The notes under the pieces are model-generated. The model did no database searches. It had not been told where the DNA came from and was given only the letters and a program-made list of their open reading frames with translations. From a virus: DNA of 41,493 nucleotides. Below, piece after piece: positions 6,356 through 40,528 of the stretch. Every line of letters starts with the position of its first letter. Positions within the stretch are counted from its first letter, which is position 1. Both the position numbers and the translations under genes were made by a program. The stretch lies in the IMG/VR virus record IMGVR_UViG_3300039305_000005; one strand, written 5' to 3'.

Positions 6356-6895
6356 ATGGCACGTGGTATCCAACTGACCGACGAAAAGCGCGCACAAGTC
6401 ATCGCGGCGTTAGCCGCTGGTGATGGTGTGCGCGAAGTGTCGCGCCGGCTCGATGTGCCGGTGTCGACCGTTTCGCGGCTGAAAAACGAGACGATGCCCA
6501 AAGTACTTCGCGAAAGTGTTCCACCGGTTGAGACACCTGACGAACCAATCGGCTTTATTCCGATCGATGATGACGAAGGCGCGCTGATCGACGCGGAATT
6601 CGAGCGCCAGCACCAGCGCGAGCAGCTCGCCGATGAGTGCGAGATGGATCCTGGAACACTCGCGAACCTGGAACAGGTTGGAACACAAAAAAAATCACTG
6701 CACCAGCTCGTCGCCGATCTACTGACGGAAAACCTGCTCACCCTGGCCGCGCACGCCAAGATGTCCCGCGATCCGAAATGGTTCGCACGCCAGGGCGCGG
6801 AGGCGATGGGCATTTTCGATGGTGTGATGTCGGATAAGACGATCCGCATCCTGGAAGCCGCTGCAGCGGCGCAACCTCTGGACAATGGCAACTAA
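6356..6895 (+). CDS. Putative terminase small subunit (N-terminal HTH)
   Basis: The HTH-like sequence GVREVSRRLDVPVSTVSRLK sits at the N-terminus. The gene overlaps the TerL start (ATG 6885; stop 6893-6895). The track ORF 6308 was trimmed to ATG 6356. Confidence 0.6.
   Translation: MARGIQLTDEKRAQVIAALAAGDGVREVSRRLDVPVSTVSRLKNETMPKVLRESVPPVETPDEPIGFIPIDDDEGALIDAEFERQHQREQLADECEMDPGTLANLEQVGTQKKSLHQLVADLLTENLLTLAAHAKMSRDPKWFARQGAEAMGIFDGVMSDKTIRILEAAAAAQPLDNGN
6500..6508. repeat. Class-1 palindrome copy (AAGTACTT core)
   Basis: CCCAAAGTACTTCG inside the TerS CDS, read as P-K-V-L-R. Confidence 0.9.
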
Positions 6896-8477
6896 AGCAA
6901 AATCTTCGACAAAGCGCCCGGCTGGGTTTTCCCGCCGGGCTTCTGCCTTTTTAGCGGCAGCCGTGGCCAGTGCGTTCGCGCCGGTGATGGAGCCGCTTTT
7001 CAACTTCGCACCTGGTGCGCTGGAAGCGCGCGATGCCGCTCGCGAAAAGCTCGCAGCTGAACGCGCAGCGCTAACTGAAGACAAGCTATCGTTTCGCGAA
7101 TTCGTTTCCCTGGTCAATCCAAAATATCGTTGGTTCAAACACTGCGAAGTACTTGGGGATGTTCTGCAGCGTGTGGCCGATGGCGAGATCGATCGCTTGA
7201 TGATCTTCATGCCACCGCGTCACGGCAAAAGCGAAGAAACCTCACGACTCTTCACCGCTTACTTTTTGTATCGCTATCCAAACCGCTGGGTAGGTCTGGC
7301 GTCGTATGCCGCTGATCTGGCCTATACGCTGTCACGAGCGGCGAAAGATAATTTCTTAGCTTCTGGTGGTCAGATCCGCTGGGATGCCAAAGGCGTGAAA
7401 CACTGGCAGACCGAACAGGGCGGCGGCTTGTGGGCTGCCGGCGTTGGCGGTCCCATGACCGGCAAGGGCTGGCATCTCGGAATTATCGACGATCCGCTCA
7501 AGAATGCGGAACAGGCGGCGTCGCTCAAAATTCGTGAGAAACAGAAAGAATGGTTTCAAAGCTCTTTCTCTACTCGAGAAGAACCCGAGGGCGGCGCGCT
7601 CATTTTCATCCTGACGCGGTGGAACGAGGATGACCTGGCCGGCTGGCAGCTCGCCAGTGAAATGGGGCTCGAAGCCGATGAAGCGCAGCGCTGGCATATC
7701 ATCAACTTTCCGGCCCTGGCCGAAAGTGAAGAGGAAGCGCCTGAGTTTCCGGCCAGCTGCACCGTCGAGCCGGATTGGCGCAAGCCTGGTGAGGCGTTGT
7801 GTCCCGAACGCTATAACGTCAAAAAGTTAAAGCGTATCGCGGCGCAAGTCGGCACCTACTTCTGGAACGCGCTATTTCAGCAGCGACCGCGCCCATTAGA
7901 AGGCGCCTTCTTCAAAGCCGATTGGTTTAAGAACATCGTTGGCGCGATCCCTGAAGACTGCAAGCTGGTGCGCTATTGGGACAAAGCGGGTAGTGCGGGC
8001 AAGGGCGATTACACCGTCGGCGTTTTGATGGCGCGCTGGCTCGACGAAGATGGCATTGCAACGTTCTTTATCGTCGACGTGGTGCGTGGCCAGTGGGAAG
8101 CGATCGACCGCGAGCGCGAGATCCGCAAAGTCGCGATGCGTGACGAGTCGCTGTATGGCGAAGGGCGCATCACGATCTGGATGGAGCAAGAAGGTGGCAG
8201 CGGCGGCAAGGAATCGGCGCAGGCGTCCGTGCGTCGCCTGGAAGGCTACAGCGTGCGCACTGAGACTGTTACGGGCAAGGGTGATAAATCCTTGCGCGCG
8301 GATCCGTTTCGCACCCAGGCCAGTGTGGGCAATATTAAGCTGGTTAAAGGCGATTGGATCGTGCCTTATCTGCGTGAGCTGACAGCGTTCCCGAACGGTC
8401 GCAATGATGATCAAGTTGACGCGACAAGTGGTGCGTTTAACAAGTTGGCGCTGGGTCGACGTTGGGAGTGGAATTAA
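6885..8477 (+). CDS. terL: Terminase large subunit
   Basis: P-loop-like MPPRHGKSE, Walker-B-like GIIDDP, and the C-terminal nuclease motif GRNDDQVDATSGAF typical of phage large terminases. It lies next to the portal module. Confidence 0.92.
   Translation: MATKAKSSTKRPAGFSRRASAFLAAAVASAFAPVMEPLFNFAPGALEARDAAREKLAAERAALTEDKLSFREFVSLVNPKYRWFKHCEVLGDVLQRVADGEIDRLMIFMPPRHGKSEETSRLFTAYFLYRYPNRWVGLASYAADLAYTLSRAAKDNFLASGGQIRWDAKGVKHWQTEQGGGLWAAGVGGPMTGKGWHLGIIDDPLKNAEQAASLKIREKQKEWFQSSFSTREEPEGGALIFILTRWNEDDLAGWQLASEMGLEADEAQRWHIINFPALAESEEEAPEFPASCTVEPDWRKPGEALCPERYNVKKLKRIAAQVGTYFWNALFQQRPRPLEGAFFKADWFKNIVGAIPEDCKLVRYWDKAGSAGKGDYTVGVLMARWLDEDGIATFFIVDVVRGQWEAIDREREIRKVAMRDESLYGEGRITIWMEQEGGSGGKESAQASVRRLEGYSVRTETVTGKGDKSLRADPFRTQASVGNIKLVKGDWIVPYLRELTAFPNGRNDDQVDATSGAFNKLALGRRWEWN
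7147..7154. repeat. Class-1 palindrome copy (AAGTACTT core)
   Basis: GCGAAGTACTTGGG inside the TerL CDS, read as C-E-V-L-G. Confidence 0.9.
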
Positions 8478-9719: not shown

Positions 9720-11033
9720 ATGAAATTCTTGCAGCAAATCGGCAAAGCGCTCAAACAGCCCGTTTTCTCCGGCTACGGTGGCCGTGGTGGCTGGGGCATG
9801 CGTTCGGGCCTCTTCAGTAATGGATCCTTCGATTACAGGCGCGAAGCCGGTCCGTTGTGGGAGTCGTGCATCCCCTTTATGTGCCTGCGTTGGGAGCAAC
9901 GTGCCACGATCGAGGCGGAACTGGTTATCCAGCGTCGCGACGAAAATGGCGATTGGAAAAACGATCCCGATCACTCCGCGATGGAGCTGATCTCCAATCC
10001 TAACCCCTTCTTTGACATCCACCAGCTGCTCGATGCGGTGCGTTTCGATTATCACCTGTCGGGCAATGGCTACATTCACATAGTGCGCTCGAAATCGCGT
10101 AAGGTCCGCCAACTCTGGTGGATCCCTTCCTGGATGATCGAGCCGCGTTGGGAAGAGAACGGTCTGGAGTTCATCAACTGTTACGAATACATGGTTGATG
10201 GCGTCTCCTACGCTCTGCCGGTTGAGGATATCATCCACTTCAAAAACGGCATCGATCCGCGTACGTTTGGCCGTAAAGGTTTGGGCGACTTCTCCGCGAC
10301 ACTGCGCGAAGTCTGCACCGATAACGAGCGCGCGGTCTTCACCGCGAGCTTGTTGCGCAATATGGGCATTCCTGGCGTGATTATCAGTCCCAAGGGCGGC
10401 AGCGCTGGCGATGAAGCCTCATTAACCAAGCGACAGCGCGCCGAGATCAAAGAAATCTGGAGCGAGTTCACTGGTGAAGGCCGTGGCGAGCCCTGGGTGC
10501 AGTCGATCCCGGTCGAAGTCAACATGCCAGGATTCAGCCCGCAACAGCTGCTGATCGATAAGATATCGTCGATTCCTGAACAGCGCTTGTGCGGTTCGTT
10601 TGGCATTCCGGCCAGCGTGCTGCAGCTGGGCACCGGCCTGGAGAATTCCAACACCAAAGCCAACAAAGGCGACGATCGCGAGCAGGCTTACGAGAGCTGC
10701 GTGATTCCGACGTTGCAGGTCTTCGCGCGCACTTTAACGCGCGTTTTGATGAGCGAGCTCGATGACATTCGCAAAGTGCGCTTCTGGTTCGATCTGTCGG
10801 AAGTCCGGTGCCTGGCCGAAGACGAAAACGCGATTTCGAAGATGCTGACCGAAGCCTGTGGTGGTCCCTATATGACCGTCAATGAAGCGCGCGGACGTCG
10901 CGGTTTAAAGCCGATCCCGGGCGGCGATGACGTGCGCGCTGGCAAAGCGAAGTCAGGTGCCGAAGATGGTACCGAAAAACCCGACGCAGATCCTGCCGAA
11001 AATTCCACCAACGAAGAGAAAGAAGCGGCCTAA
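9720..11033 (+). CDS. Portal protein (HK97-like family)
   Basis: 437 aa, positioned between the terminase and the prohead protease. The sequence character is typical of HK97-type portals and the C-terminus is acidic. Confidence 0.88.
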   Translation: MKFLQQIGKALKQPVFSGYGGRGGWGMRSGLFSNGSFDYRREAGPLWESCIPFMCLRWEQRATIEAELVIQRRDENGDWKNDPDHSAMELISNPNPFFDIHQLLDAVRFDYHLSGNGYIHIVRSKSRKVRQLWWIPSWMIEPRWEENGLEFINCYEYMVDGVSYALPVEDIIHFKNGIDPRTFGRKGLGDFSATLREVCTDNERAVFTASLLRNMGIPGVIISPKGGSAGDEASLTKRQRAEIKEIWSEFTGEGRGEPWVQSIPVEVNMPGFSPQQLLIDKISSIPEQRLCGSFGIPASVLQLGTGLENSNTKANKGDDREQAYESCVIPTLQVFARTLTRVLMSELDDIRKVRFWFDLSEVRCLAEDENAISKMLTEACGGPYMTVNEARGRRGLKPIPGGDDVRAGKAKSGAEDGTEKPDADPAENSTNEEKEAA

Positions 11034-13701: not shown

Positions 13702-13706
13702 AAAGT

Positions 13707-13719
13707 TGACCCAGGGTCA
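13707..13719. repeat. Class-2 palindrome TGACCCAGGGTCA
   Basis: Starts 5 nt after the TAA (13699-13701) of the protease fusion gene. Confidence 0.9.
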
Positions 13720-13725
13720 GAATTG

Positions 13726-13775
13726 AACGTCGAGTAAGTGTTTTTCCGCTTGCTCGACGTTTTCTTTTTCTTTTT
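13726..13775 (+). terminator. Intrinsic terminator
   Basis: AACGTCGAG (13726-13734) pairs with CTCGACGTT (13753-13761), followed by the T-rich run TTCTTTTTCTTTTT. Confidence 0.6.
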
Positions 13776-13803
13776 GTAGTTTTTCCTCAACCTGTGCTAA
13801 AAT
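13774..13803 (+). promoter_or_regulatory. Sigma70-like promoter candidate for the non-coding unit
   Basis: TTGTAG (13774-13779), an 18-nt spacer, then TAAAAT (13798-13803). Confidence 0.4.
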
Positions 13804-13956
13804 TGCATCGGTACATAACAGTCATGCCAATCTCCCGCGTTGAACTTCTCATTCAAGTCCTCTATGAAGTGATTTGCTATGCAAAGAGCTTGATGGAGAC
13901 GCGTTTAAAATGCGTGAGTAAGAGTGAGCAGAAACGGGAACGGCAGGCCATTCATG

Positions 13957-14029
13957 CGGGAAGTAGCTCAGTAGCAGAGCGGCGGGTTACTTGAATCCGT
14001 GCGCGTAGGTGCAAGTCCTACCTTCCTGA
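13957..14029 (+). tRNA. Degenerate tRNA-like element (cloverleaf-compatible; anticodon arm non-canonical, CUU if a 7-nt loop is assumed)
   Basis: - Acceptor stem: CGGGAAG / CTTCCTG.
- D arm: GCTC-AGTAGCA-GAGC.
- Anticodon stem: CGGGT / ATCCG, with loop TACTTGA (A at position 33).
- Variable region: 5 nt.
- T arm: GTAGG-TGCAAGT-CCTAC.
- The conserved GG of the D loop and the TTC of the T loop are absent. Confidence 0.5.
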
Positions 14030-14357
14030 ACAATGCCATATAGGCCGTCTGTGAGCCTTCATCACGTCGTTCTCTTCTCAGAGAGTGTTGGAGGAAGGGC
14101 GAAAGATCACAGAGCATCCAGCGCCGGGTGATGGCCCTGCACGGTGGGCGTGTTGAACGTGCTGCAGCGAAGCCGGACCGCTCTTGGATAAAAGAGGGAA
14201 AGGTACCTTCCAGACAGGCCCGTAAACGTCAACGCAGGCGTGACAGCCGGAGAGACGGCACTTTTACAACTTGTTAGGGTGAGTCTTCATTGACTATGCC
14301 CGCACATTCGAATTTCATGCGCAGCGACACGCATGGAATCGATGTGCGGGCTTTTTT
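14030..14357 (+). ncRNA. Candidate structured non-coding RNA downstream of the tRNA-like element
   Basis: No credible ORF in this stretch. Long-range pairing of GGCCGTCTG (14043-14051) with CAGAC-A-GGCC (14211-14220). Nested local hairpins: CTCT/AGAG, CTCTT/AAGAG (14181-14196) and GGAAAGGTACCTTCC (14197-14211). It ends in a strong terminator. Confidence 0.4.
14298..14357 (+). terminator. Strong intrinsic terminator
   Basis: GCCCGCACAT (14298-14307) pairs with ATGTGCGGGC (14342-14351). An inner stem is formed by CATGCG/CGCATG. TTTTTT follows. Confidence 0.65.
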
Positions 14358-14368
14358 GTTTTGTATCC

Positions 14369-14380
14369 CAAAGTACTTTG
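14369..14380. repeat. Class-1 palindrome copy (AAGTACTT core)
   Basis: CAAAGTACTTTG, ending 16 nt before the capsid ATG 14397. AGGAGA (14385-14390) lies between them. Confidence 0.9.
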
Positions 14381-14396
14381 TCGCAGGAGAGAACAC

Positions 14397-15740
14397 ATGA
14401 GCACACAGCTCCAGAAAATGCGAGCCGATTTCGAGGTCAAGACCAAGCGGGCCGACGAAATCATCAACAAAGCGGATCCAACGCCAGAAGAAGCGACCGA
14501 AGCGGAAACGCTGGTCAACCAAGAACTTCCAGCGCTGAAATCCAAGATCGACAGCCTGGCCGGCCTGGGCGGTCTCAAGGCCAATCTGACGGAACTCAAT
14601 TCGTGGAACAACGATGCGACTCCGCTGGTGCAGCCTGGCGCTAATGGCGGCAAAAAAAGCGTCGGCAAAACCGAGATCAACCTGCTGACTGGCGAAGTGG
14701 TAGACGAATCCGGCGAAGGTCTACTTTCCGAGCACCAGATCAAAGCCACACGCGATCCGCAATACCTGCGTGCTTATAACTCGTTTCTGCGCAATCGCGG
14801 TATTGAGAACATGAAGTCGGCGGATGAAATCAAGTCGTTGTCCGAAGGCATCGACACCGAAGGTGGTTTCTTGGTGCCGCCTGAGATCCTGGCCGGCATC
14901 ATCAAGCGCGAACCGGCTCCCACGCGAATGCTCGACCGCGTGCGCACCATCACGGTCTCTTCTGATCGTGCGATGATGCTGAAGTCGGAATACGACGTTG
15001 ATGATCTGTATTCCAGCGCCGTGCGCGTCTACAAGACCGCTGAAGGCGCGGCTGCCACCAAATCGGATAAGCCGGTGTTTGGCACGCTGCAGATCGATGT
15101 TCACCAGTTCACTGCCGAACTTTCGATTTCGCGTATGCTGCTCGAAGACACCAGCTTCGACTTGATCGGCTTTGTTGCTGAAGAATTCCGCACCGCTTAT
15201 CGTAACTTCCTCGCCAGGAGCCTGCTGCAGGGTTCGGGTGTCGGCGAGCATCATGGTTTGCTCACCCGTGCCGGCAAAGCCAAAGGTCCGGAGATCGTCA
15301 ATTCCGGTCATGCCAGCCAAGTCACATGGACGGGCTTGCGCAAGATCAAAAACGCCGTGCCCGAGCAGTACGATGAAAACAGCATCTATTGCTTCAACAA
15401 GAAATCCACCCAGGATGCCATTGAGGCGCTGGTGGATAACGATGGGCGTCCGCTCTGGCCGGAGTCGCAGCGTTCGGGCTTGGAAAACGGTGTGCCGGGC
15501 CGCCTGCAGGGCTATGGTTACATTCGTGATCCATTCATGCCCGATGTGGCGGCGAATGCTTTGGCCTACTGGTTCGGTGATCCGCTGGGTTATTACCGCG
15601 CCATGCGTTTGGGCATGAGCATCGAGCCGTTGCGCGAAATCGAAGCGCGTCGCGGTCAAGTCGTGTTCCTCGCTCGCTTCCGTGATGGTGGCGATGTCGG
15701 CGAACCGTGGCGCCTCAAAGTCGGCAAGATCGCCGCGTAA
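14397..15740 (+). CDS. Major capsid protein, HK97 fold, with N-terminal delta (scaffold-like) domain
   Basis: 447 aa. Coiled N-terminal region (QKMRADFEVKTKRADEIINK...). The sequence character is typical of HK97-family capsid proteins. The gene follows the portal and protease. The start was chosen at the ATG behind AGGAGA. Confidence 0.92.
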   Translation: MSTQLQKMRADFEVKTKRADEIINKADPTPEEATEAETLVNQELPALKSKIDSLAGLGGLKANLTELNSWNNDATPLVQPGANGGKKSVGKTEINLLTGEVVDESGEGLLSEHQIKATRDPQYLRAYNSFLRNRGIENMKSADEIKSLSEGIDTEGGFLVPPEILAGIIKREPAPTRMLDRVRTITVSSDRAMMLKSEYDVDDLYSSAVRVYKTAEGAAATKSDKPVFGTLQIDVHQFTAELSISRMLLEDTSFDLIGFVAEEFRTAYRNFLARSLLQGSGVGEHHGLLTRAGKAKGPEIVNSGHASQVTWTGLRKIKNAVPEQYDENSIYCFNKKSTQDAIEALVDNDGRPLWPESQRSGLENGVPGRLQGYGYIRDPFMPDVAANALAYWFGDPLGYYRAMRLGMSIEPLREIEARRGQVVFLARFRDGGDVGEPWRLKVGKIAA

Positions 15741-18653: not shown

Positions 18654-19187
18654 ATGGCAGATCCGACACCAGCCGAAACGATGGAAGGTGCACGGCTCGA
18701 TGGGGGTCGAGTGCGACCGGCACGCGCTGAAATCCTACGCCTGCAAAGTACTTTGTTGCCGGCGTTGGTGGCATATCAGAACGATCGCGAGGGCTTGACT
18801 ATTCCGATCCCCGAACGCTTTCGCTATGCGCGCACCAGCCTGGGCAAAGTGCAGTTTCCCACCGTTGTCATCGGCGCCCGGCTCGAATCGCCCACCGTCG
18901 CGATCCGGACGCAGCAAAAGAAGATCCTGGTCTCGATTACCGCGCTGGGTGAACCGATCGAAGTCGGCGAGCAGTGGGATGATCTGTGGGACATCGTGGA
19001 GCTGGCGGCGCGCATCATGGCCAAAACCAAAAGCGGCTGGAAACTGCCCGACAGTCGACCGGTGTGGCTCGGCTGCAAGCTCGACACGATCAGCGACGTG
19101 TTGCCGGATTACTGGCGCGAATATGCTGGCGTGCGCGCTGAATTCAACATCAATCAAACCGGGCTCGATCTCTGGGAGCCCGCCTGA
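18654..19187 (+). CDS. Putative head-tail joining / tail completion protein
   Basis: 177 aa. ATG lies 3 nt after the upstream stop. The function is inferred from synteny. Confidence 0.65.
   Translation: MADPTPAETMEGARLDGGRVRPARAEILRLQSTLLPALVAYQNDREGLTIPIPERFRYARTSLGKVQFPTVVIGARLESPTVAIRTQQKKILVSITALGEPIEVGEQWDDLWDIVELAARIMAKTKSGWKLPDSRPVWLGCKLDTISDVLPDYWREYAGVRAEFNINQTGLDLWEPA
18744..18755. repeat. Class-1 palindrome copy (AAGTACTT core)
   Basis: CAAAGTACTTTG inside the CDS, read as Q-S-T-L-L. Confidence 0.9.
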
Positions 19188-19221: not shown

Positions 19222-19232
19222 GAAGGAGCTCT

Positions 19233-19446
19233 CATGAGCGAGCAAAACGATACACAGGCCACGCCGGATATCTGCACCGATCAGGTTCCGCTGGTCGATA
19301 AGAATCCCTTTGGCCACGGCATTCCCCGCGAACCGGAAGAGTCGGCACCTGGCAACCCGGTCGAAGCCGAAGGTTTAGCCATCAAGGCGTTTGTTGACGA
19401 AACGCCGGATGAAACACAAGGCGGTGACACCAGTGGCGAACGTTGA
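19233..19446 (+). CDS. Small acidic hypothetical protein (71 aa)
   Basis: ATG behind GAAGGAG. This is the in-frame internal start of track ORF 18826..19446. Confidence 0.55.
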
Positions 19447-33086: not shown

Positions 33087-33095
33087 AAAGTACTT
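33087..33095. repeat. Class-1 palindrome copy (AAGTACTT core)
   Basis: Ends 21 nt before the integrase ATG 33117. The 17-mer TCAAAGTACTTCCCGGT (33085-33101) is identical to 40164-40180. Confidence 0.9.
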
Positions 33096-33116: not shown

Positions 33117-34322
33117 ATGGCCACATCACTCGCGCGGGCCATTCCCGTCGATGATGTTCAAGAAACTGACCCAAGGTCAGATTTTCGAACGTCAGCTTAT
33201 ACCCAACCTTTTCCACACCCTGTACAACCTCACACCGGCCAAACCGCAATCCCCTTTTTGCAAAGCGTTGGCGGCGCCGGTGGACGCTTTGTCGAAGAAC
33301 CGATCGAGGCCGAAGTACTTTCGAGCGAACCCGTGCAGCCGGCACTGATCGAGGTCAGCGACACGCAGCTCGCGCTCGCACCCACGCCACACCTGGTCGA
33401 AGTCGATGTCGTGGCGATGCTGCTCGAAGATAAATCGAGCGCGGCCACTCGCAAAGCGTATGTGGCGGGCCTGAAGCATTTCTTTGGCAACGATCCCAAT
33501 CCTGCCGAAGTGATGGCGTTCCTGCAGCTCGATCGTCGATCGATGGCGATGAGCCTGGCGCAGTATAAAACCCGAATGCGCAAGGCGGGCTGTCGTGGTG
33601 CCGTTATCAACCAGCGTTTGTCCGCAGTCCGCTCGCTGCTCAAATATGCCAACAACCTGGGATTCTGCGATGTGGATCCGCGCGGCCTGGTCGACTCCGA
33701 AAAGATCGCTGCTTATCGTGATACCAGCGGCGTCGATGTGCCCACGTTCATCAAGATCCGCAAAGTACCGGCGAAACGCTACGGTGCTAAATCGGTGCGC
33801 GGCTTGCGCGATATCGCTTTGCTCGATGTCATGTTCGAATTGGGTCTACGTCGCAGCGAAGTGTGCAAACTCAACGTGGAAGACTTCTCGATTCCACAAA
33901 AGAAACTCTGGATCGATGGTAAAGGCCAGCATGGTCAGAAGGTGCCGATGACACTTTCACCAGGCCTGGTCAAAGCGATTGCCGATTATATCCTGGCTGC
34001 CGGCCACGCGGGCGATCGCAAAGGTCCGCTCTTTCGCAACTTGCACCACAATCCAGCGGTTGCCGGCCAACGCTTGACCGGCGACGGTTTGCGCTACCTG
34101 GTGCGCGAGTATGGTCAGGCGGTCGGCATCGAGTCGTTTGCACCGCACAAAATCAGACATACGAGCATCACAGCTGCAGCACTGGCCACCAATGGCAACA
34201 TGACCAAAGTGCAGAAACATAGCCGCCATAAGAAGCTCGAAACCGTGGCGATCTATGTCGATAACGCCAATGATGCGCAGGGCGAAGTCGGTTCATTGCT
34301 GGCGGGCATGGTGCGAAAATAA
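33117..34322 (+). CDS. int: Tyrosine recombinase / integrase
   Basis: Catalytic pattern GLRRSE (Arg), HKIRHTSIT (H-x-x-R) and HKKLETVAIY (His...Tyr). A SAM-like core-binding region (ATRKAYVAGLKHFF) is present. AGGAGA RBS. The N-terminal extension is about 100 aa. Confidence 0.92.
   Translation: MATSLARAIPVDDVQETDPRSDFRTSAYTQPFPHPVQPHTGQTAIPFLQSVGGAGGRFVEEPIEAEVLSSEPVQPALIEVSDTQLALAPTPHLVEVDVVAMLLEDKSSAATRKAYVAGLKHFFGNDPNPAEVMAFLQLDRRSMAMSLAQYKTRMRKAGCRGAVINQRLSAVRSLLKYANNLGFCDVDPRGLVDSEKIAAYRDTSGVDVPTFIKIRKVPAKRYGAKSVRGLRDIALLDVMFELGLRRSEVCKLNVEDFSIPQKKLWIDGKGQHGQKVPMTLSPGLVKAIADYILAAGHAGDRKGPLFRNLHHNPAVAGQRLTGDGLRYLVREYGQAVGIESFAPHKIRHTSITAAALATNGNMTKVQKHSRHKKLETVAIYVDNANDAQGEVGSLLAGMVRK
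33167..33179. repeat. Class-2 palindrome, imperfect (TGACCCAAGGTCA)
   Basis: 5-bp arms TGACC/GGTCA, inside the integrase N-terminal coding region. Confidence 0.6.
33313..33321. repeat. Class-1 palindrome copy (AAGTACTT core)
   Basis: GAAGTACTTTCGA inside the integrase CDS, read as E-V-L-S. The same 13-mer occurs at 29406-29418. Confidence 0.9.
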
Positions 34323-34438: not shown

Positions 34439-34451
34439 TGACCCTGGGTCA
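34439..34451. repeat. Class-2 palindrome TGACCCTGGGTCA
   Basis: Lies immediately after the terminator T-run. It overlaps the stop codon (34449-34451) of the minus-strand gene 34449..34640. Confidence 0.9.
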
Positions 34452-34640
34452 ACTTTGGGTTTCGGAATCGATGATCGCCTGACGTTCGAGAGTTACCGCG
34501 ATTTGATAGGCTTCCATGATTTGCAAATATCCTTGCGCTGAGTTCCACGATTTTGTAGTTTGCTTTCCTATCTCTTCGCGTATCCCCTTTATTTGTTCAA
34601 GTCGCTCGGAATGGGCTTTGCGTGCTTTGTCTCCAACCAT
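34449..34640 (-). CDS. Small hypothetical protein (63 aa)
   Basis: ATG 34640 lies behind AAGGAGA with a 6-nt spacing. It is the last gene of the minus-strand operon. Confidence 0.55.
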   Translation of the reverse strand: MVGDKARKAHSERLEQIKGIREEIGKQTTKSWNSAQGYLQIMEAYQIAVTLERQAIIDSETQS

Positions 34641-38256: not shown

Positions 38257-38463
38257 GTGACAATGGAACAGAGCAACAATGTCGAGCCGATGACAATGGT
38301 TGAAGTGTGCGAAGCCCTGGGTATTTCGCGCATGACAGCACACCGTCGCATTCGCGAGGGTGTGATCAAACCGCTGCCTAAATCACCTGGCCAGCGCCGT
38401 GCCCACAGATTACTTTTTGATCGTGCTGAGATCGAGCGTGTCAAGCAAGAAGGCACGGAATGA
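38257..38463 (+). CDS. Excisionase / MerR-type HTH protein (AlpA-like)
   Basis: MTMVEVCEALGISRMTAHRRIREGVIKPLP. The start is uncertain (GTG 38257, ATG 38263 or ATG 38290). The stop overlaps the parA ATG. Confidence 0.7.
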   Translation: MTMEQSNNVEPMTMVEVCEALGISRMTAHRRIREGVIKPLPKSPGQRRAHRLLFDRAEIERVKQEGTE

Positions 38464-39218
38464 CCCAGATCATCTCGACGATTAACCAAAAAGGTGGCGT
38501 CGGCAAAACCACGACTGCTGTTAATGTCGCTGGTGGTTACGCGGAGCTGGGTAGGCGTGTTTTGCTGATCGATATGGACCCGCAAACCAATGCCAGTGTG
38601 ATGTGTGGCATCCGCGATCCGGAAGAATCAATCTTCGATGTGCTGGTGGATCCGGAAAAGTGTCCGCTCTCCAGCATCATTGTCAGCGGCACAGTCGAGG
38701 GCGTTGATGTGGCGCCCGCGCATCGCGCGCTGGCCGGGCTGGAAATGGCGCTCCAGAACACACCAGGCCGCGAACACGTTCTGCGCGAAGTCATCGAGAC
38801 GGTGAAAGATCGCTATGATGTCATCGTCATCGATAACGGCCCGACGTTGGGGCTGTGGCCAATTATGTCGCTGGTGGCTTCCACGGTGGCACTCGTCATC
38901 GTGAACGGTGAACCGCTGGCGATTGAAGGATTGGCGGAAGTCGAGAAGACCATTAAAGCCGTGCGCCAGCGACTCAACCCGCTGCTGCAGCGCCGGATCG
39001 TGCCCACCATGATCGATCCACGTCGCCCGCTGCACACGAAAATCATTGGATCCGTGCGCGAGGTCTACGGAAAAGACGTTTTCAAAAGCGAGATACCGGA
39101 AAGCGCACATCTCCAAAATGGCGTTATGCGCGGTGGTTGCGTGTTGGCCTATGCACCAAACACAACCGCAGCTGAATCTTATCGAAATTTGACGGGTGAA
39201 TTGAAGCGCTTAAAGTAA
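38460..39218 (+). CDS. parA: ParA partition ATPase
   Basis: Deviant Walker A motif NQKGGVGKTTTAVN. The size and sequence are typical of ParA/Soj proteins. Confidence 0.95.
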   Translation: MTQIISTINQKGGVGKTTTAVNVAGGYAELGRRVLLIDMDPQTNASVMCGIRDPEESIFDVLVDPEKCPLSSIIVSGTVEGVDVAPAHRALAGLEMALQNTPGREHVLREVIETVKDRYDVIVIDNGPTLGLWPIMSLVASTVALVIVNGEPLAIEGLAEVEKTIKAVRQRLNPLLQRRIVPTMIDPRRPLHTKIIGSVREVYGKDVFKSEIPESAHLQNGVMRGGCVLAYAPNTTAAESYRNLTGELKRLK

Positions 39219-39223
39219 TCATC

Positions 39224-40528
39224 ATGGCAGCTCAAAAAACCTCTAAGCCCGCAGCAAAACCAGGCACGGCTAAACGTAAGTCGAAATCAGATCAGGCTTA
39301 CGATGCCTATATGAGCAACATCCTGACGTTGCCCAGCGCTTCCAAGGTCATGCACGGCGAAGATACCGTGTGGCTCGATGTCGAACTAATCGACGATAGC
39401 CCGTTCCAGACACGCGGCGGCATCGATCCCACCGACGTGGATGAGATGGCCACGTCTCTTAATGAAAGCGGCCAACTGCAGGCTGCGATCGTGCGTCCGC
39501 ACCCAACCGAGCCAGATCGCTATCAGCAGGCATTTGCCCACACACGCAAAGCGGCGATCAAAGCCGGCGCCAATGCCGGCAGCCACCTCGAAAATCCTGA
39601 TCTCTACAAAGGTAAGCTGTGGTGCGTTATCCGCGAGCAGCTCACCGATGTGCAGATGATGCAAATGGCGATCGCTGAAAATGATACGCGCAGCGATGTG
39701 AGCGATCTGGAGCGTGCGCGATCGTTCAATCGCTTGCGCGAGATGTTGCCCAGGAAAGCCGGCAAACCAGCACCGCTGGAAGCCGTCGCCAAAGTCGCGG
39801 GCATTGGTTATCGCCAGGTCAAACGCCTGGTCGATTTGCTGGAGCTGCCGGAAGAAATTCAAAAGCAGTTTGTGCGGCCACAGAAGAAAGCGGACGATCA
39901 GAAGGACGACTTCTTTTTACTCAATGAAAGGCATGGCCGCGCACTGTTGCAGTTCCAGGAAGATCCCAAACGCCAGCGGGTATTTTTCCGCGAGATTGTG
40001 CGCCACCAGTGGAGCGGTGCCGAAGCGGAACGCAAAGCCCAGGCGGAACGCGCGCAGCGTGCGCTCCCGTCCGATATCATCGCGGCTAAAGAGCAGGAAA
40101 ACAAAGCCTGGCAGGAACTCAAGCAACGCAACCGCGAGACCGTGGCCAAAGGCGAAGCACCATTCAAAGTACTTCCCGGTGGCGAGACACCGCTCGATCC
40201 CGAAGTCGAGCGCGAGCTGGAACTCGCAGAGATCGAGAATCTTGATGAAGCGGCGATCAAGAAGATGCTGCTTGACACCATGACGCCCGAAGAAATCGCT
40301 GCCCGCAGAAAAGAACTCCAAAAAGTGACCCAGGGCCAGATTGAACCTGAACCCAAAAGCGAGCTGGAGCAAGCGCGCGAAGTACTTTCCGACGTGGTGG
40401 CAAAACTGGAAGGACTCAGCATCACCAAGAAAGAACGCAAGGCCATCAAGTATCATTTAGGTTTCCTGCAACGCCAGGCGGACGAGCTAACCGCGCAACT
40501 GCAACGCATCGACAAGGAAGTTTCTTGA
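39224..40528 (+). CDS. parB: ParB-like partition protein
   Basis: ParB N-terminal box (VELIDDSPFQTRGG...LNESGQLQAAIVRP). HTH (VAKVAGIGYRQVKRLVDLLELPEE). It lies directly downstream of parA. The C-terminus is a long coiled coil. Confidence 0.85.
   Translation: MAAQKTSKPAAKPGTAKRKSKSDQAYDAYMSNILTLPSASKVMHGEDTVWLDVELIDDSPFQTRGGIDPTDVDEMATSLNESGQLQAAIVRPHPTEPDRYQQAFAHTRKAAIKAGANAGSHLENPDLYKGKLWCVIREQLTDVQMMQMAIAENDTRSDVSDLERARSFNRLREMLPRKAGKPAPLEAVAKVAGIGYRQVKRLVDLLELPEEIQKQFVRPQKKADDQKDDFFLLNERHGRALLQFQEDPKRQRVFFREIVRHQWSGAEAERKAQAERAQRALPSDIIAAKEQENKAWQELKQRNRETVAKGEAPFKVLPGGETPLDPEVERELELAEIENLDEAAIKKMLLDTMTPEEIAARRKELQKVTQGQIEPEPKSELEQAREVLSDVVAKLEGLSITKKERKAIKYHLGFLQRQADELTAQLQRIDKEVS
40166..40174. 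repeat. Class-1 palindrome copy (AAGTACTT core)
   Basis: Inside parB, read as F-K-V-L-P. The 17-mer TCAAAGTACTTCCCGGT (40164-40180) is identical to 33085-33101. Confidence 0.9.
40326..40338. repeat. Class-2 palindrome, imperfect (TGACCCAGGGCCA)
   Basis: One mismatch. It shares AAAAGTGACCCAGGG with the element at 28483. It lies inside parB. Confidence 0.6.
40380..40388. repeat. Class-1 palindrome copy (AAGTACTT core)
   Basis: GAAGTACTTTCCG inside parB, read as E-V-L-S. The same 13-mer occurs at 32951-32963. Confidence 0.9.

What the first reader, a model, noticed from the sequence alone, without database searches (positions are those of the whole stretch)
13774..14357. A roughly 550-nt promoter-to-terminator non-coding unit, with a degenerate tRNA-like element and a highly paired RNA, between the protease and capsid genes
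**Boundaries**
- The 695 nt between the protease gene stop (13701) and the capsid ATG (14397) contain no credible ORF.
- An intrinsic terminator closes the upstream operon (13726-13775).
- A sigma70-like promoter follows: TTGTAG, 18 nt, TAAAAT (13774-13803).
- A strong terminator ends the unit (14298-14357).

**Contents**
- A 73-nt cloverleaf-compatible element lies at 13957-14029.
- It has good acceptor, D, anticodon and T stems.
- Its loops are non-canonical: there is no GG in the D loop, the T loop is TGCAAGT, and the anticodon loop is TACTTGA with A at position 33 (or a 9-nt loop, TTACTTGAA).
- About 300 nt with long-range pairing follow (14043-14051 with 14211-14220), along with nested hairpins.

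**Interpretation**
- Large structured RNAs next to tRNA genes in phages are known (GOLLD, ROOL). I cannot tell whether this element belongs to any such class.
- The aberrant anticodon loop could mean a pseudo-tRNA, a decoy for anticodon nucleases, or a recoding tRNA. All three are speculative.
Basis: partly seen in the sequence, partly recalled or inferred. Interest (0 to 1): 0.65.

Follow-up and report, generated by a model that had tools for sequence, protein, structure and literature searches.

The report
Odd lysine tRNA gene inside phage cassette
The gap before this phage's capsid gene is a small self-contained gene cassette (promoter, a conserved 56-codon gene, terminator) into which a lysine-tRNA-type gene with a misshapen anticodon arm has been inserted; the proposed large structured RNA next to it is not supported.

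Summary
The boundaries are real. Both terminators fold far better than shuffles (z -5.3 and -6.4). The promoter is an extended -10 type conserved in one relative, L053.

Two claims fail:
- The region is not ORF-free. ORF 13824-13994 (56 aa) is conserved with L053 at protein level (0 of 5000 column shuffles reach the score).
- The "highly paired" 14030-14297 folds no better than shuffles (z +0.21), has no Rfam match, no homologue, and no gene-like ORF.

The "degenerate tRNA-like element" is called tRNA-Lys(CUU) by ARAGORN and by Rfam (46 bits, threshold 29). It is 82-84% identical to tRNA-Lys(CUU) of Streptomyces phages. Its odd D and T loops recur together in other viral tRNAs of several isotypes. 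Only the anticodon arm is aberrant: two extra nucleotides, predicted to form a 7-bp helix with an ACUUG pentaloop.

The tRNA and about 235 nt of orphan DNA replace about 45 nt of L053 and clip the small ORF. No other relative has it.

Most likely it is a recently captured tRNA gene of doubtful decoding ability. A role against tRNA-Lys-directed defence is open. Interest is modest. Nearby, the palindrome AAGTACTT occurs 30 times in the window.

The parts
13706..13720 (.). Copy of the palindrome TGACCCWGGGTCA, 5 nt after the stop codon of the upstream gene
   Evidence: 12 matches in the window against 0.8 expected, most of them just after stop codons. It forms a small hairpin.
13725..13778 (+). 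Intrinsic terminator closing the upstream gene (16-bp hairpin 13725-13762 plus T run)
   Evidence: Terminator scan. Fold z -5.3, 0 of 200 shuffles as good. The sub-threshold Rfam ctRNA_pGA1 match (30 bits against 45) only reflects this hairpin pair.
13774..13803 (+). Sigma-70-like promoter with extended -10: TTGTAG, 18 nt, TGC TAAAAT
   Evidence: Read from the sequence. L053 has TTGTGT, 18 nt, TGC TATAAT, and the same 20 nt to the ATG. Not scored by the generic scan. Activity is inferred.
13824..13994 (+). Small ORF of 56 aa (MPISRVELLIQVLYEVICYAKSLMETRLKCVSKSEQKRERQ...). It has a hydrophobic N-terminal stretch and a basic tail. Codons 1-39 are conserved. The last 17 codons are new and run into the tRNA, with the stop in the anticodon loop.
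   Evidence: L053 homologue of 49 aa. BLOSUM62 is 85 in frame against 28 and 9 out of frame. Identities by codon position are 24/27/16. 0 of 5000 column shuffles reach the score. The N-terminal 23 codons alone give p 0.003 and 0.0005. No Pfam or PHROG family and no other homologue.
13945..14265 (.). Segment present in the window but replaced by about 45 nt in L053 (boundaries +/- 20 nt). It is an insertion or replacement holding the tRNA gene and the orphan DNA.
   Evidence: The blastn and MAFFT comparison with L053 shows homology up to about 13940 and again from about 14243-14266. GC is 57% against 43-47% for the flanking cassette.
13957..14029 (+). tRNA-Lys(CUU)-type gene, 73 nt, no encoded CCA. 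Layout: acceptor 7 bp, D stem 4 bp with loop AGTAGCA, T stem 5 bp with loop TGCAAGT, discriminator A. The anticodon arm has 2 extra nt (loop UUACUUGAA, or 6 bp plus UACUUGA, or 7 bp plus ACUUG).
   Evidence: ARAGORN. Rfam 46 bits. 82-84% identity to tRNA-Lys(CUU) of Streptomyces phages Shady and Heather. Energies of the alternative anticodon arms.
14030..14265 (+). Orphan DNA downstream of the tRNA. Probably a passive 3' trailer of the transcript.
   Evidence: No excess structure. No Rfam match. No second tRNA except at the 70% ARAGORN threshold. All ORFs have off-frame-like codon usage. No similarity in phages, plasmids or 160 loci.
14266..14362 (+). Conserved 3' end of the cassette: 32 nt of conserved sequence, then a 22-bp terminator hairpin (14298-14351) and a T run
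   Evidence: 81% nt identity to L053 over 131 nt. Hairpin z -6.4. Read from the alignment, the L053 hairpin has two pairs changed on both sides and four on one side that keep pairing, and two pairs that are broken.
14371..14399 (+). Capsid 5' leader: AAGTACTT palindrome (14371-14378), Shine-Dalgarno AGGAG (14385-14389), ATG 14397
   Evidence: Sequence. Palindrome census. Capsid Pfam PF05065, E 1.4e-38.

Best explanation
The 695-nt gap is a moron-like cassette sitting between two intrinsic terminators in the head-gene operon.

**Ancestral form, kept in relative L053.** It consists of an extended -10 promoter, a small gene for a peptide of about 50 aa with a hydrophobic head and a basic tail, a strong terminator, and then the capsid ribosome-binding site.

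**In this phage.** About 300 nt of foreign DNA has replaced the last ~45 nt of that cassette's coding part. The foreign DNA carries a complete tRNA gene of the phage tRNA-Lys(CUU) type plus about 235 nt with no detectable feature.

**How it would work (inferred).**
- The cassette promoter makes a transcript of about 550 nt that ends at the 14298-14362 terminator.
- RNase P would cut at 13957.
- 3' trimming and CCA addition would release a 73-nt tRNA-shaped RNA.
- The RNase P cut would remove the stop codon of the small ORF.

**State of the tRNA.** All stems are intact. The D-loop/T-loop combination is a recurrent viral variant. The anticodon arm has two extra nucleotides and is predicted to close into a 7-bp helix with an ACUUG pentaloop.

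**My commitment.** This is a recently captured tRNA gene that decodes AAG poorly or not at all. It is a passenger, not a purpose-built large RNA, and the 235 nt downstream is a passive trailer.
For: - Boundaries and promoter.
- The cassette is shared with L053, and the small ORF shows coding-type conservation.
- The tRNA is present only here. There is no tRNA near the capsid gene in 102 related loci nor in L100-L105. The closest capsid relatives have gaps of only 125-402 nt.
- tRNA identity.
- The Rfam score is lower than for the comparator phage tRNAs: 46 against 54-73 bits.
- Two extra nucleotides in the anticodon loop relative to Shady and Heather tRNA-Lys.
- The 7-bp helix plus pentaloop is the most stable cloverleaf at -26.1 kcal/mol. 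The pair probabilities for the two extra U-A pairs are 0.99 and 0.91.
- No IMG/VR tRNA has this loop or this T arm plus variable region.
- The trailer is featureless.
- Lys codon use is unbiased (AAA 187, AAG 158), so there is no obvious demand for extra tRNA-Lys(CUU).
Against: - A decaying gene should show stem mismatches. Every stem is perfectly paired, and the elbow variant is the co-varying type seen in apparently working viral tRNAs.
- tRNA-shaped genes with the same elbow and a closed anticodon helix are kept in about 18 gut viral contigs. Such RNAs can therefore be maintained.
- Phage genomes rarely keep 300 nt of useless DNA for long.
- With one sequence (plus an identical copy, L001), selection cannot be measured.
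- The direction of the event is inferred from only one cassette-bearing relative. It could be an insertion here or a deletion in L053.
- Transcription and processing are not shown.
Confidence: 0.45

Rival explanations
1. It is a working counter-defence RNA. One version is a tRNA-Lys substitute whose remodelled anticodon arm (and variant elbow) makes it insensitive to host nucleases that cut tRNA-Lys. The other version is a tRNA-shaped decoy that occupies such nucleases. In both, it is expressed from its own promoter.
For: - tRNA-Lys is a repeated immune target. PrrC cuts tRNA-Lys(UUU) (PMC10264068). PARIS AriB cuts tRNA-Lys(UUU) between positions 40 and 41, and the phage T5 tRNA-Lys variant resists it through anticodon-stem and D-loop changes (PMC12409363).
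- Phage tRNAs tend to carry anticodon-loop changes at nuclease sites (PMC10264068).
- Here all stems are intact. The changes lie in the anticodon arm and the D and T loops.
- The gene has its own conserved promoter and terminator.
- Other viral tRNA-like genes combine the same elbow with closed anticodon helices and are conserved across many contigs.
Against: - The known resistant phage tRNAs described in PMC12409363 differ by substitutions, not by loop expansion.
- A 9-nt loop or a pentaloop should decode badly, and LysRS reads the anticodon (my own knowledge).
- It is a singleton.
- The host and its defences are unknown.
- I found no published case of a tRNA decoy of this kind.
Confidence: 0.27
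2. It is an RNA punctuation mark. The tRNA shape serves mainly as an RNase P site that separates or destabilises the small-ORF message and sets the 5' end of a downstream RNA. It has no role in translation.
For: The tRNA overlaps the last 38 nt of the small ORF, so an RNase P cut would remove its stop codon. The tRNA lies inside one promoter-terminator unit.
Against: L053 runs the same cassette without it. There is nothing recognisable downstream to be released.
Confidence: 0.08
3. It is a replacement tRNA for tRNA-dependent lysogeny. The phage would integrate into, and destroy, a host tRNA-Lys gene, and would supply its own copy from a promoter that is active in the prophage.
For: - The phenomenon exists for phages with tyrosine integrases, including a tRNA-Lys case (PMC10865867).
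- The window encodes a tyrosine recombinase at 33117-34322.
- The tRNA sits in a moron-type cassette.
- A 9-nt match to the reverse complement of tRNA positions 1-9 lies at 33091, upstream of the recombinase gene.
Against: - By my estimate the 9-nt match has a chance expectation of about 0.09, and it overlaps an AAGTACTT repeat.
- ParA and ParB genes suggest a plasmid prophage, with the recombinase acting as a resolvase.
- A replacement for an essential tRNA must decode well, which the anticodon arm makes doubtful.
- No tRNA fragment lies next to the recombinase gene.
Confidence: 0.06
4. It is a recoding tRNA. The 9-nt loop UU-ACUUG-AA would read a 4- or 5-base codon (AAGU, CAAG or CAAGU) and shift the reading frame in a phage or host gene.
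For: Infernal aligns the arm as a 5-bp stem with a 9-nt loop that keeps U32 U33 and A37 A38 around five central bases. tRNAs with an extra anticodon-loop nucleotide cause +1 frameshifting (PMC7803779).
Against: - The thermodynamic model closes the loop to 5 nt.
- A scan of in-frame AAG codons near gene ends found only ordinary gene overlaps. The one suggestive case (18654-19187, then 19234-19446) has its own strong ribosome-binding site.
- No other viral tRNA shares the loop.
Confidence: 0.03
5. One reading: the whole 13774-14357 stretch is one non-coding structured RNA, of the kind of large phage RNAs found next to tRNA genes (GOLLD, ROOL).
For: A long gene-poor gap is bounded by a promoter and a terminator and contains a tRNA.
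Against: - No Rfam match at E <= 10.
- z +0.21 for 14030-14297.
- The 5' part encodes a conserved peptide.
- The 3' part has no relative anywhere searched.
Confidence: 0.03

Closest known systems
Phage-encoded tRNA-Lys(CUU), e.g. Streptomyces phages Shady (MT701596) and Heather (MK686069)
   Same: - 82-84% identity over 60 nt.
- Same anticodon triplet and discriminator A.
- Same T stem.
- Heather has the identical T loop TGCAAGT.
   Different: - The window tRNA has 2 extra nt in the anticodon loop, 1 nt less in the variable loop, and a 7-nt D loop with AG instead of GG.
- It scores 46 bits against 66-67 bits in Rfam.
- It sits in the head operon, not beside an integrase gene or in a tRNA array.
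Nuclease-evading phage tRNAs (T5 tRNA-Lys against PARIS AriB; mycobacteriophage tRNAs against VapC)
   Same: A phage tRNA of an isotype that host immunity targets, differing from the norm in the anticodon stem-loop and the D loop (PMC12409363, PMC10264068).
   Different: - The cases in those papers are base substitutions in an otherwise standard anticodon arm and are shown or presumed to decode. Here the arm is lengthened.
- The host tRNA is unknown, so no phage-host comparison is possible.
Morons: self-contained promoter-gene-terminator insertions in phage late operons
   Same: Own promoter, flanked by terminators, placed between head genes, present in some relatives and absent in others.
   Different: Here the cassette holds both a small peptide gene and a secondarily inserted tRNA gene that overlaps its 3' end.
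tRNAs with elongated anticodon stems or enlarged loops (tRNAPyl, mt-tRNASer(UCN), yeast mt-tRNAThr with an 8-nt loop, frameshift suppressors such as SufB2)
   Same: They depart from the 5-bp stem and 7-nt loop rule (PMC7609411, PMC3113583, PMC7803779).
   Different: - Those have compensating changes (one nucleotide between the acceptor and D stems, a 3-nt variable loop) or a single extra nucleotide, and a known decoding role.
- Here the connector is standard (UA), the variable loop is 4-5 nt, and no decoding role is evident.

Membership tests
tRNA (Rfam RF00005) | Covariance-model score at or above the gathering threshold, and detection by an independent tRNA finder | tested here: met
   46 bits against 29, E 1.5e-8. 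ARAGORN finds it at default and relaxed settings.
tRNA (Rfam RF00005) | Cloverleaf stems (7/4/5/5 bp) and core tertiary nucleotides U8, A14, R15-Y48, G53-C61, T54-A58 | tested here: met
   All stems are fully paired. T8, A14, G15/C48, G53/C61 and T54/A58 are read directly from the sequence.
tRNA (Rfam RF00005) | Elbow nucleotides G18 G19 in the D loop and T-Psi-C in the T loop | tested here: inconclusive
   - The canonical form is absent: the D loop is AGTAGCA and the T loop is TGCAAGT.
- The same D arm occurs in 26 IMG/VR tRNA genes of at least 7 isotypes. 24 of them have G at position 55.
- In the same contigs, 52 of 54 tRNAs with GG in the D loop have TTC or TCC T loops. Fisher p 2e-8; by family, 3e-6.
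- My reading is that G18-U55 is replaced by A18-G55.
tRNA (Rfam RF00005) | Anticodon arm of 5 bp with a 7-nt loop, U33, and a purine at position 37 suited to the codon (A37 for ANN codons) | tested here: not met
   The arm is 19 nt instead of 17. Three readings are possible: a 9-nt loop (Infernal), 7 nt with A33 and G37 plus an extra connector base (ARAGORN), or a 7-bp helix with a pentaloop, which is the most stable.
tRNA-Lys identity | Anticodon with U35 (CUU or UUU), discriminator A73, and closest sequence relatives being tRNA-Lys | tested here: met
   CUU and A73 are present. The best database matches are annotated tRNA-Lys genes. Charging by LysRS cannot be tested here.
Large structured phage RNAs next to tRNAs (GOLLD, ROOL) | Match to the family covariance model, or conserved structure with covariation | tested here: not met
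   No Rfam match at gathering or at E <= 10. z +0.21. No homologues on which to test covariation.
Moron cassette | Own promoter and terminator, inserted between genes of a late operon, patchy among relatives | tested here: met
   Terminators. Conserved promoter. Present in the window and L053 and absent in L100-L103. Promoter activity was not tested.
Nuclease-evading phage tRNA | Differs from the host's tRNA of the same isotype at or near the cleavage site of a host nuclease, while still decoding | not testable with these tools
   Host unknown; relatives lie in MAGs of Abditibacteriales, Pyrinomonadaceae and Armatimonadetes.
tRNA-dependent lysogeny | [quoted passage not shown] | tested here: inconclusive
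   A recombinase is present. There is only a 9-nt match near it, with a chance expectation of about 0.09 by my estimate. No tRNA-like match beside it. ParA and ParB argue for a plasmid state.
Expanded-anticodon (frameshifting) tRNA | An enlarged anticodon loop plus sites in genes that need a 4- or 5-base reading | tested here: inconclusive
   An enlarged loop is possible, but the model predicts it closes. No gene needing such a shift was found.

The most novel reading that the evidence does not exclude
The window tRNA, the 'Leu-AAG'-like genes of about 18 gut viral contigs, and the L148 gene belong to one unrecognised kind of viral tRNA-shaped RNA. The kind is defined by:
- a standard acceptor/T arm;
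- a co-varying A18/G55 elbow;
- an anticodon arm closed into a long helix with a 4-6-nt loop.

Such RNAs would not decode. They would act on tRNA-binding host factors, for example as decoys for, or inhibitors of, tRNA-cleaving immune nucleases.
Probability: 0.12. Interest if true: 0.75.

Novelty: new variant of a known kind. Interest (0 to 1): 0.36.

Why it matters
As it stands, this is a correction. An apparent large non-coding RNA locus resolves into a small conserved peptide gene, an atypical phage tRNA gene, and featureless DNA.

It would matter more if the remodelled anticodon arm proves to be selected. tRNA-Lys is a favoured target of bacterial immunity, through PrrC and PARIS. A phage RNA that keeps the tRNA body but alters the part that gets cut would be a new way to escape or to jam such systems.

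The D-loop/T-loop covariation seen across viral tRNAs also bears on tRNA gene finders. Genes that lack GG and T-Psi-C are easily dismissed as pseudogenes.

Tried and rejected
**Searches for relatives that found nothing**
- DNA similarity of the gap against phage GenBank records and against plasmids gave nothing useful.
- Exact and degenerate pattern scans of IMG/VR gave no tRNA hit:
  - a 36-mer from the tRNA;
  - the loop UUACUUGAA in tRNA context: 26 hits, none a tRNA;
  - the T arm plus variable region.
- The terminator 22-mer found only L053's own contig.

**Small ORF**
- A word-index search with the two-sequence alignment found no homologue.
- A back-translated IMG/VR scan returned only L053's contig.
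- phmmer against 1.84 billion representatives gave two weak multi-stretch hits in 919-aa and 1453-aa proteins, which I take to be low-complexity matches.
- No Pfam or PHROG family.

**Trailer 14030-14265**
- No second decayed tRNA. ARAGORN reports extra calls only at a 70% threshold, and Rfam does not support them.
- No gene-like ORF by codon usage.
- No family hits for its ORFs.
- No tblastn or blastn similarity to any held locus.

**Ideas considered and dropped**
- Direct repeat of the tRNA 3' end (14019-14029 and 14204-14214) as an att-like duplication. I rejected it: about 2.6 such 11-mers are expected by chance in the stretch, and six similar families were found.
- attP next to the recombinase gene: no tRNA-like match.
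- Frameshift sites for a 4- or 5-base reading: only ordinary gene overlaps.
- Codon-supply argument: AAG is 46% of Lys codons, so there is no bias.

**Limit**
The single scans of metagenome contigs and genome contigs were used for the capsid family. The tRNA and its trailer therefore could not be searched there.
Full report
**1. Setting**

The window is a 41.5-kb genome of a tailed phage of the HK97 type. Its recognisable genes are:
- large terminase, 6885-8477;
- portal, 9720-11033;
- a long head-module ORF ending at 13701;
- major capsid protein, 14397-15740 (PF05065, E 1.4e-38);
- a tyrosine recombinase, 33117-34322;
- ParA and ParB, 38460-40528.

Pfam and PHROGs see only a 2H-phosphoesterase / Acb1 / RNA-ligase-type domain.

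No cultured phage is close at DNA level. The best tblastn capsid matches in GenBank phages are 26-33% identical. One other assembly, L001, is identical over the region and adds nothing.

**2. Boundaries**

Both terminators are real.
- The hairpin 13725-13762 with its T run folds at -29.8 kcal/mol against -14.9 for shuffles, z -5.3.
- The hairpin 14298-14351 followed by TTTTTTGTTTT folds at -35.6 against -17.9, z -6.4.

The generic scan does not score the promoter. It is nevertheless an extended -10 promoter: TTGTAG, 18 nt, TGC TAAAAT. Its architecture is kept in the one relative that has the cassette, as described in section 3.

**3. Relatives and what they show**

I collected capsid homologues at 50-67% identity and 102 related loci from metagenomes, MAGs and IMG/VR. 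I then fetched the contigs of the four closest capsids.
- None of these loci has a tRNA within reach of the capsid gene.
- The four closest have gaps of only 125-402 nt upstream of it.

One contig, L053 (IMGVR_UViG_3300042994_000012), is the key.
- Its portal region is 73% identical at DNA level.
- It matches the gap in two pieces. Window 13911-13937 matches at 89%. Window 14266-14395 matches at 81%.
- The two pieces are 50 nt apart in L053 and 329 nt apart in the window.

**4. A conserved small gene**

The first matching piece lies in an ORF.
- Window 13824-13994 encodes MPISRVELLIQVLYEVICYAKSLMETRLKCVSKSEQKRERQAIHAGSSSVAERRVT.
- L053 4690-4839 encodes MHDPLLLAFIRVIYSIFCFGKREMEKELGCVSKSEQKRNRSTETAHTAG.

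Over the first 40 codons, aligned without gaps:
- nucleotide identity by codon position is 24/27/16;
- BLOSUM62 is 85 in frame against 28 and 9 in the other frames;
- none of 5000 column shuffles reaches the observed score.

The N-terminal 23 codons are only 45% identical in DNA, yet they still score 28 against -5 and -12 (p 0.003 and 0.0005).

Upstream, the two loci share:
- TTGT at -35;
- an 18-nt spacer;
- TGC plus TAAAAT or TATAAT;
- exactly 20 nt to the ATG.

The "no credible ORF" premise is therefore wrong. The unit is a moron-type cassette for a small peptide with a hydrophobic head and a basic tail. The peptide has no family in Pfam or PHROGs and no other homologue. There is no Shine-Dalgarno sequence before its ATG, so translation itself is inferred from the conservation pattern.

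**5. The insertion**

Homology with L053 ends near 13940 and resumes between about 14243 and 14266.
- About 300 nt of the window (GC 57%) stand where L053 has about 45 nt.
- The flanking cassette is 43-47% GC.
- The new segment replaces the last codons of the small ORF. The ORF now reads into the tRNA and stops in its anticodon loop.
- With only one cassette-bearing relative, the polarity (gain here or loss in L053) is inferred, not shown.

**6. The tRNA**

ARAGORN calls tRNA-Lys(ctt) at 13957-14029. Rfam's tRNA model scores it at 46 bits against a threshold of 29.

Its nearest sequences in GenBank phages are annotated tRNA-Lys(CUU) genes:
- Streptomyces phage Shady, 84% over 60 nt, E 1e-5;
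- Streptomyces phage Heather, 82%.

Relative to these:
- all stems and the T arm match;
- Heather has the same T loop, TGCAAGT;
- the window has one nucleotide less in the D loop and one less in the variable loop;
- the window has two more nucleotides in the anticodon loop.

Those comparator tRNAs score 54-73 bits.

**7. The odd D and T loops are a recurrent pair**

A scan of IMG/VR for the D arm GCTCAGTAGCAGAGC, followed by a T loop with either G or T at position 55, returned 26 loci.
- All 26 are tRNA genes. The isotypes include Asn, Met, Gln, Pro and Thr, plus a 'Leu-AAG'-like family and one unassigned gene.
- 24 of the 26 have G55.

Among 68 distinct tRNAs in those contigs and the comparator loci:
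- D loops containing GG go with TTC or TCC T loops in 52 of 54 cases;
- D loops without GG go with TGC in 11 of 14 cases;
- Fisher p is 2e-8, or 3e-6 when collapsed to families.

My reading is that G18-U55 is replaced by A18-G55 while G19-C56 is kept. These two features therefore argue for a sound tRNA body, not for decay. I did not find this covariation described in the literature library.

**8. The anticodon arm is the real anomaly**

Three readings are possible:
- Infernal aligns a 5-bp stem with a 9-nt loop, UUACUUGAA.
- ARAGORN takes a 7-nt loop, UACUUGA, with A33 and G37, and an extra connector base.
- In the energy model the best cloverleaf has a 7-bp helix and an ACUUG pentaloop. It scores -26.1 kcal/mol, against -24.6 and -22.7 for the other two.
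- The pair probabilities for the two added U-A pairs are 0.99 and 0.91.
- Heather's tRNA folds into the standard cloverleaf.

No IMG/VR tRNA shares this loop. None shares the T arm with its variable region either.

Three of the roughly ten families with this elbow have non-standard anticodon arms:
- the window tRNA;
- the 'Leu-AAG'-like genes, with a 7-bp helix and an AAGG tetraloop, in about 18 contigs;
- the L148 gene.

That is suggestive, but it rests on few independent cases.

**9. The "highly paired RNA"**

Window 14030-14297 folds at -86.8 kcal/mol against -87.9 +/- 5.2 for shuffles, z +0.21. The opposite strand gives z -0.82. The stretch also has:
- no Rfam match at E <= 10, so no GOLLD, ROOL, tmRNA, RNase P or group I intron;
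- no further tRNA except at a 70% ARAGORN threshold;
- only ORFs with off-frame-like codon usage, -0.08 to -0.32 per codon, against +0.22 for real genes;
- no protein family;
- no similarity to any held locus, phage record or plasmid.

The quoted long-range pairing exists, but repeats of that size are at chance level. I treat this stretch as a passive trailer.

**10. The conserved 3' end**

Window 14266-14395 is 81% identical to L053, although the capsids are only 40% identical. Compared pair by pair in the alignment, the L053 hairpin has:
- two pairs changed on both sides (T-A to C-G twice);
- four pairs changed on one side with pairing kept;
- two pairs broken.

This supports a selected terminator or stabiliser hairpin just ahead of the capsid ribosome-binding site.

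**11. What it most likely is and does**

*Shown*
- A cassette with conserved promoter architecture, a conserved small ORF and a conserved terminator.
- A lineage-specific segment carrying a tRNA-Lys(CUU)-type gene with an intact body and a lengthened anticodon arm.

*Inferred*
- Transcription runs from about 13810 to about 14360.
- RNase P cuts at 13957.
- The 3' end is trimmed and CCA is added, since none is encoded.

*Role*

| Reading | Weight | Main point |
|---|---|---|
| Recently captured tRNA gene, decodes poorly or not at all | 0.45 | Singleton, co-inserted featureless DNA, clipped ORF, closed anticodon loop, no codon bias |
| Selected counter-defence RNA | 0.27 | tRNA-Lys is a target of PrrC and PARIS, and phage tRNAs escape through changes in the anticodon arm and D loop (PMC10264068, PMC12409363). 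All stems here are intact. |
| RNase P punctuation | 0.08 | The tRNA overlaps the end of the small ORF |
| tRNA-dependent lysogeny (PMC10865867) | 0.06 | Weakened by ParA and ParB and by the doubtful decoding |
| 4- or 5-base decoding | 0.03 | No site found that needs it |

**12. Comparison with known kinds, and novelty**

The element passes the tRNA tests for score, stems and core nucleotides. It fails the test for the anticodon arm. I therefore file it as tRNA-derived, a new variant of phage-encoded tRNA. I do not file it as a standard tRNA-Lys or as a member of any large-RNA family.

Canonical tRNAs have a 5-bp stem and a 7-nt loop. The known exceptions have compensating features or known decoding roles that are absent here. 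They are tRNAPyl, mt-tRNASer(UCN), an 8-nt-loop mt-tRNAThr, and frameshift suppressors (PMC7609411, PMC3113583, PMC7803779).

**13. Verdict**

Interest is modest (0.36). The main value is the corrected anatomy, together with three leads:
- the anticodon-arm remodelling;
- the A18/G55 elbow covariation in viral tRNAs;
- the very abundant palindromes in this phage group.

Noticed in passing
window, 30 sites (e.g. 2042, 4369, 11040, 14371, 15807, 19213, 23847, 33088); also L101, L102, L053/L104/L105, L100, L002/L051: The 8-bp palindrome AAGTACTT occurs 30 times in 41.5 kb against 0.2 expected (0 of 100 shuffles reach 30). The extended consensus is CAAAGTACTTTG. At least six copies lie 12-29 nt upstream of start codons, including those of the capsid and recombinase genes. 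It is equally dense (0.5-1.7 per kb) in the closest relatives and absent from 94 of 108 loci. In L100-L102 it sits in the terminator hairpin upstream of the capsid gene. It resembles the highly iterated palindrome HIP1 of cyanobacteria. I found no paper describing it.
   Followed up: partly
window 5304, 13706, 16271, 20402, 25575, 27265, 28486, 34438 and others: A second palindrome, TGACCCWGGGTCA, has 12 matches (up to 3 mismatches) against 0.8 expected. Most lie a few to about 35 nt after stop codons. The copies at 13704-13722 and 34440-34458 are a 19-nt exact inverted repeat. It may be a short RNA hairpin or a protein binding site that marks gene ends.
   Followed up: partly
Both HxTx motifs (HITV, HITL) are intact. 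Relative L102 has the same domain without any tRNA nearby. A 2H enzyme fused into a head-module protein may be a packaged counter-defence factor.
   Followed up: partly
L135-L160 (IMG/VR contigs), L107, L139, L152: Across viral tRNAs of many isotypes, a D loop with AG in place of GG (AGTAGCA, AATTAGAA) goes with a T loop with G55 (TGCRAGT). Fisher p 2e-8. The likely reading is a G18-U55 to A18-G55 exchange at the tRNA elbow. Gene finders and readers may wrongly treat such genes as degenerate.
   Followed up: partly
L135-L138, L141, L142, L144, L146, L147, L150, L151, L153-L156, L158-L160: About 18 viral contigs, many of 80-90 kb, carry a conserved tRNA-shaped gene that ARAGORN labels Leu(aag). 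Its anticodon arm is predicted as a 7-bp helix with an AAGG tetraloop, so it has no usable anticodon loop. It combines this with the AGTAGCA/TGCGAGT elbow. The same contigs hold tRNA calls with A at position 33 (loops GACATCA and CAACTAG, the latter possibly a CUA suppressor).
   Followed up: partly
window 14266-14617 against L053 4853-5206; capsid 14397-15740: The capsid gene looks mosaic. L053 shares the leader and the first ~220 nt of the capsid gene (about 70-81% nt) and the portal region (73%), but its whole capsid is only 40% identical in protein. The capsid body is closer to L100-L102 (about 70% nt). This suggests recombination within the capsid gene, near the end of its N-terminal domain.
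   Followed up: no
window 33117-34322 and 38460-40528: A tyrosine recombinase occurs together with ParA and ParB partition genes. The phage may be kept as a plasmid prophage, with the recombinase acting as a resolvase rather than an integrase. No tRNA-like attP was found beside it.
   Followed up: partly
window 19222-19446: A 70-aa ORF (19234-19446) with a strong ribosome-binding site follows the 177-aa ORF 18654-19187. It lies in a reading frame that stays open back to 18826, at the position where tail-chaperone frameshift products are usually found. Whether a frameshift product is made here was not examined.
   Followed up: no
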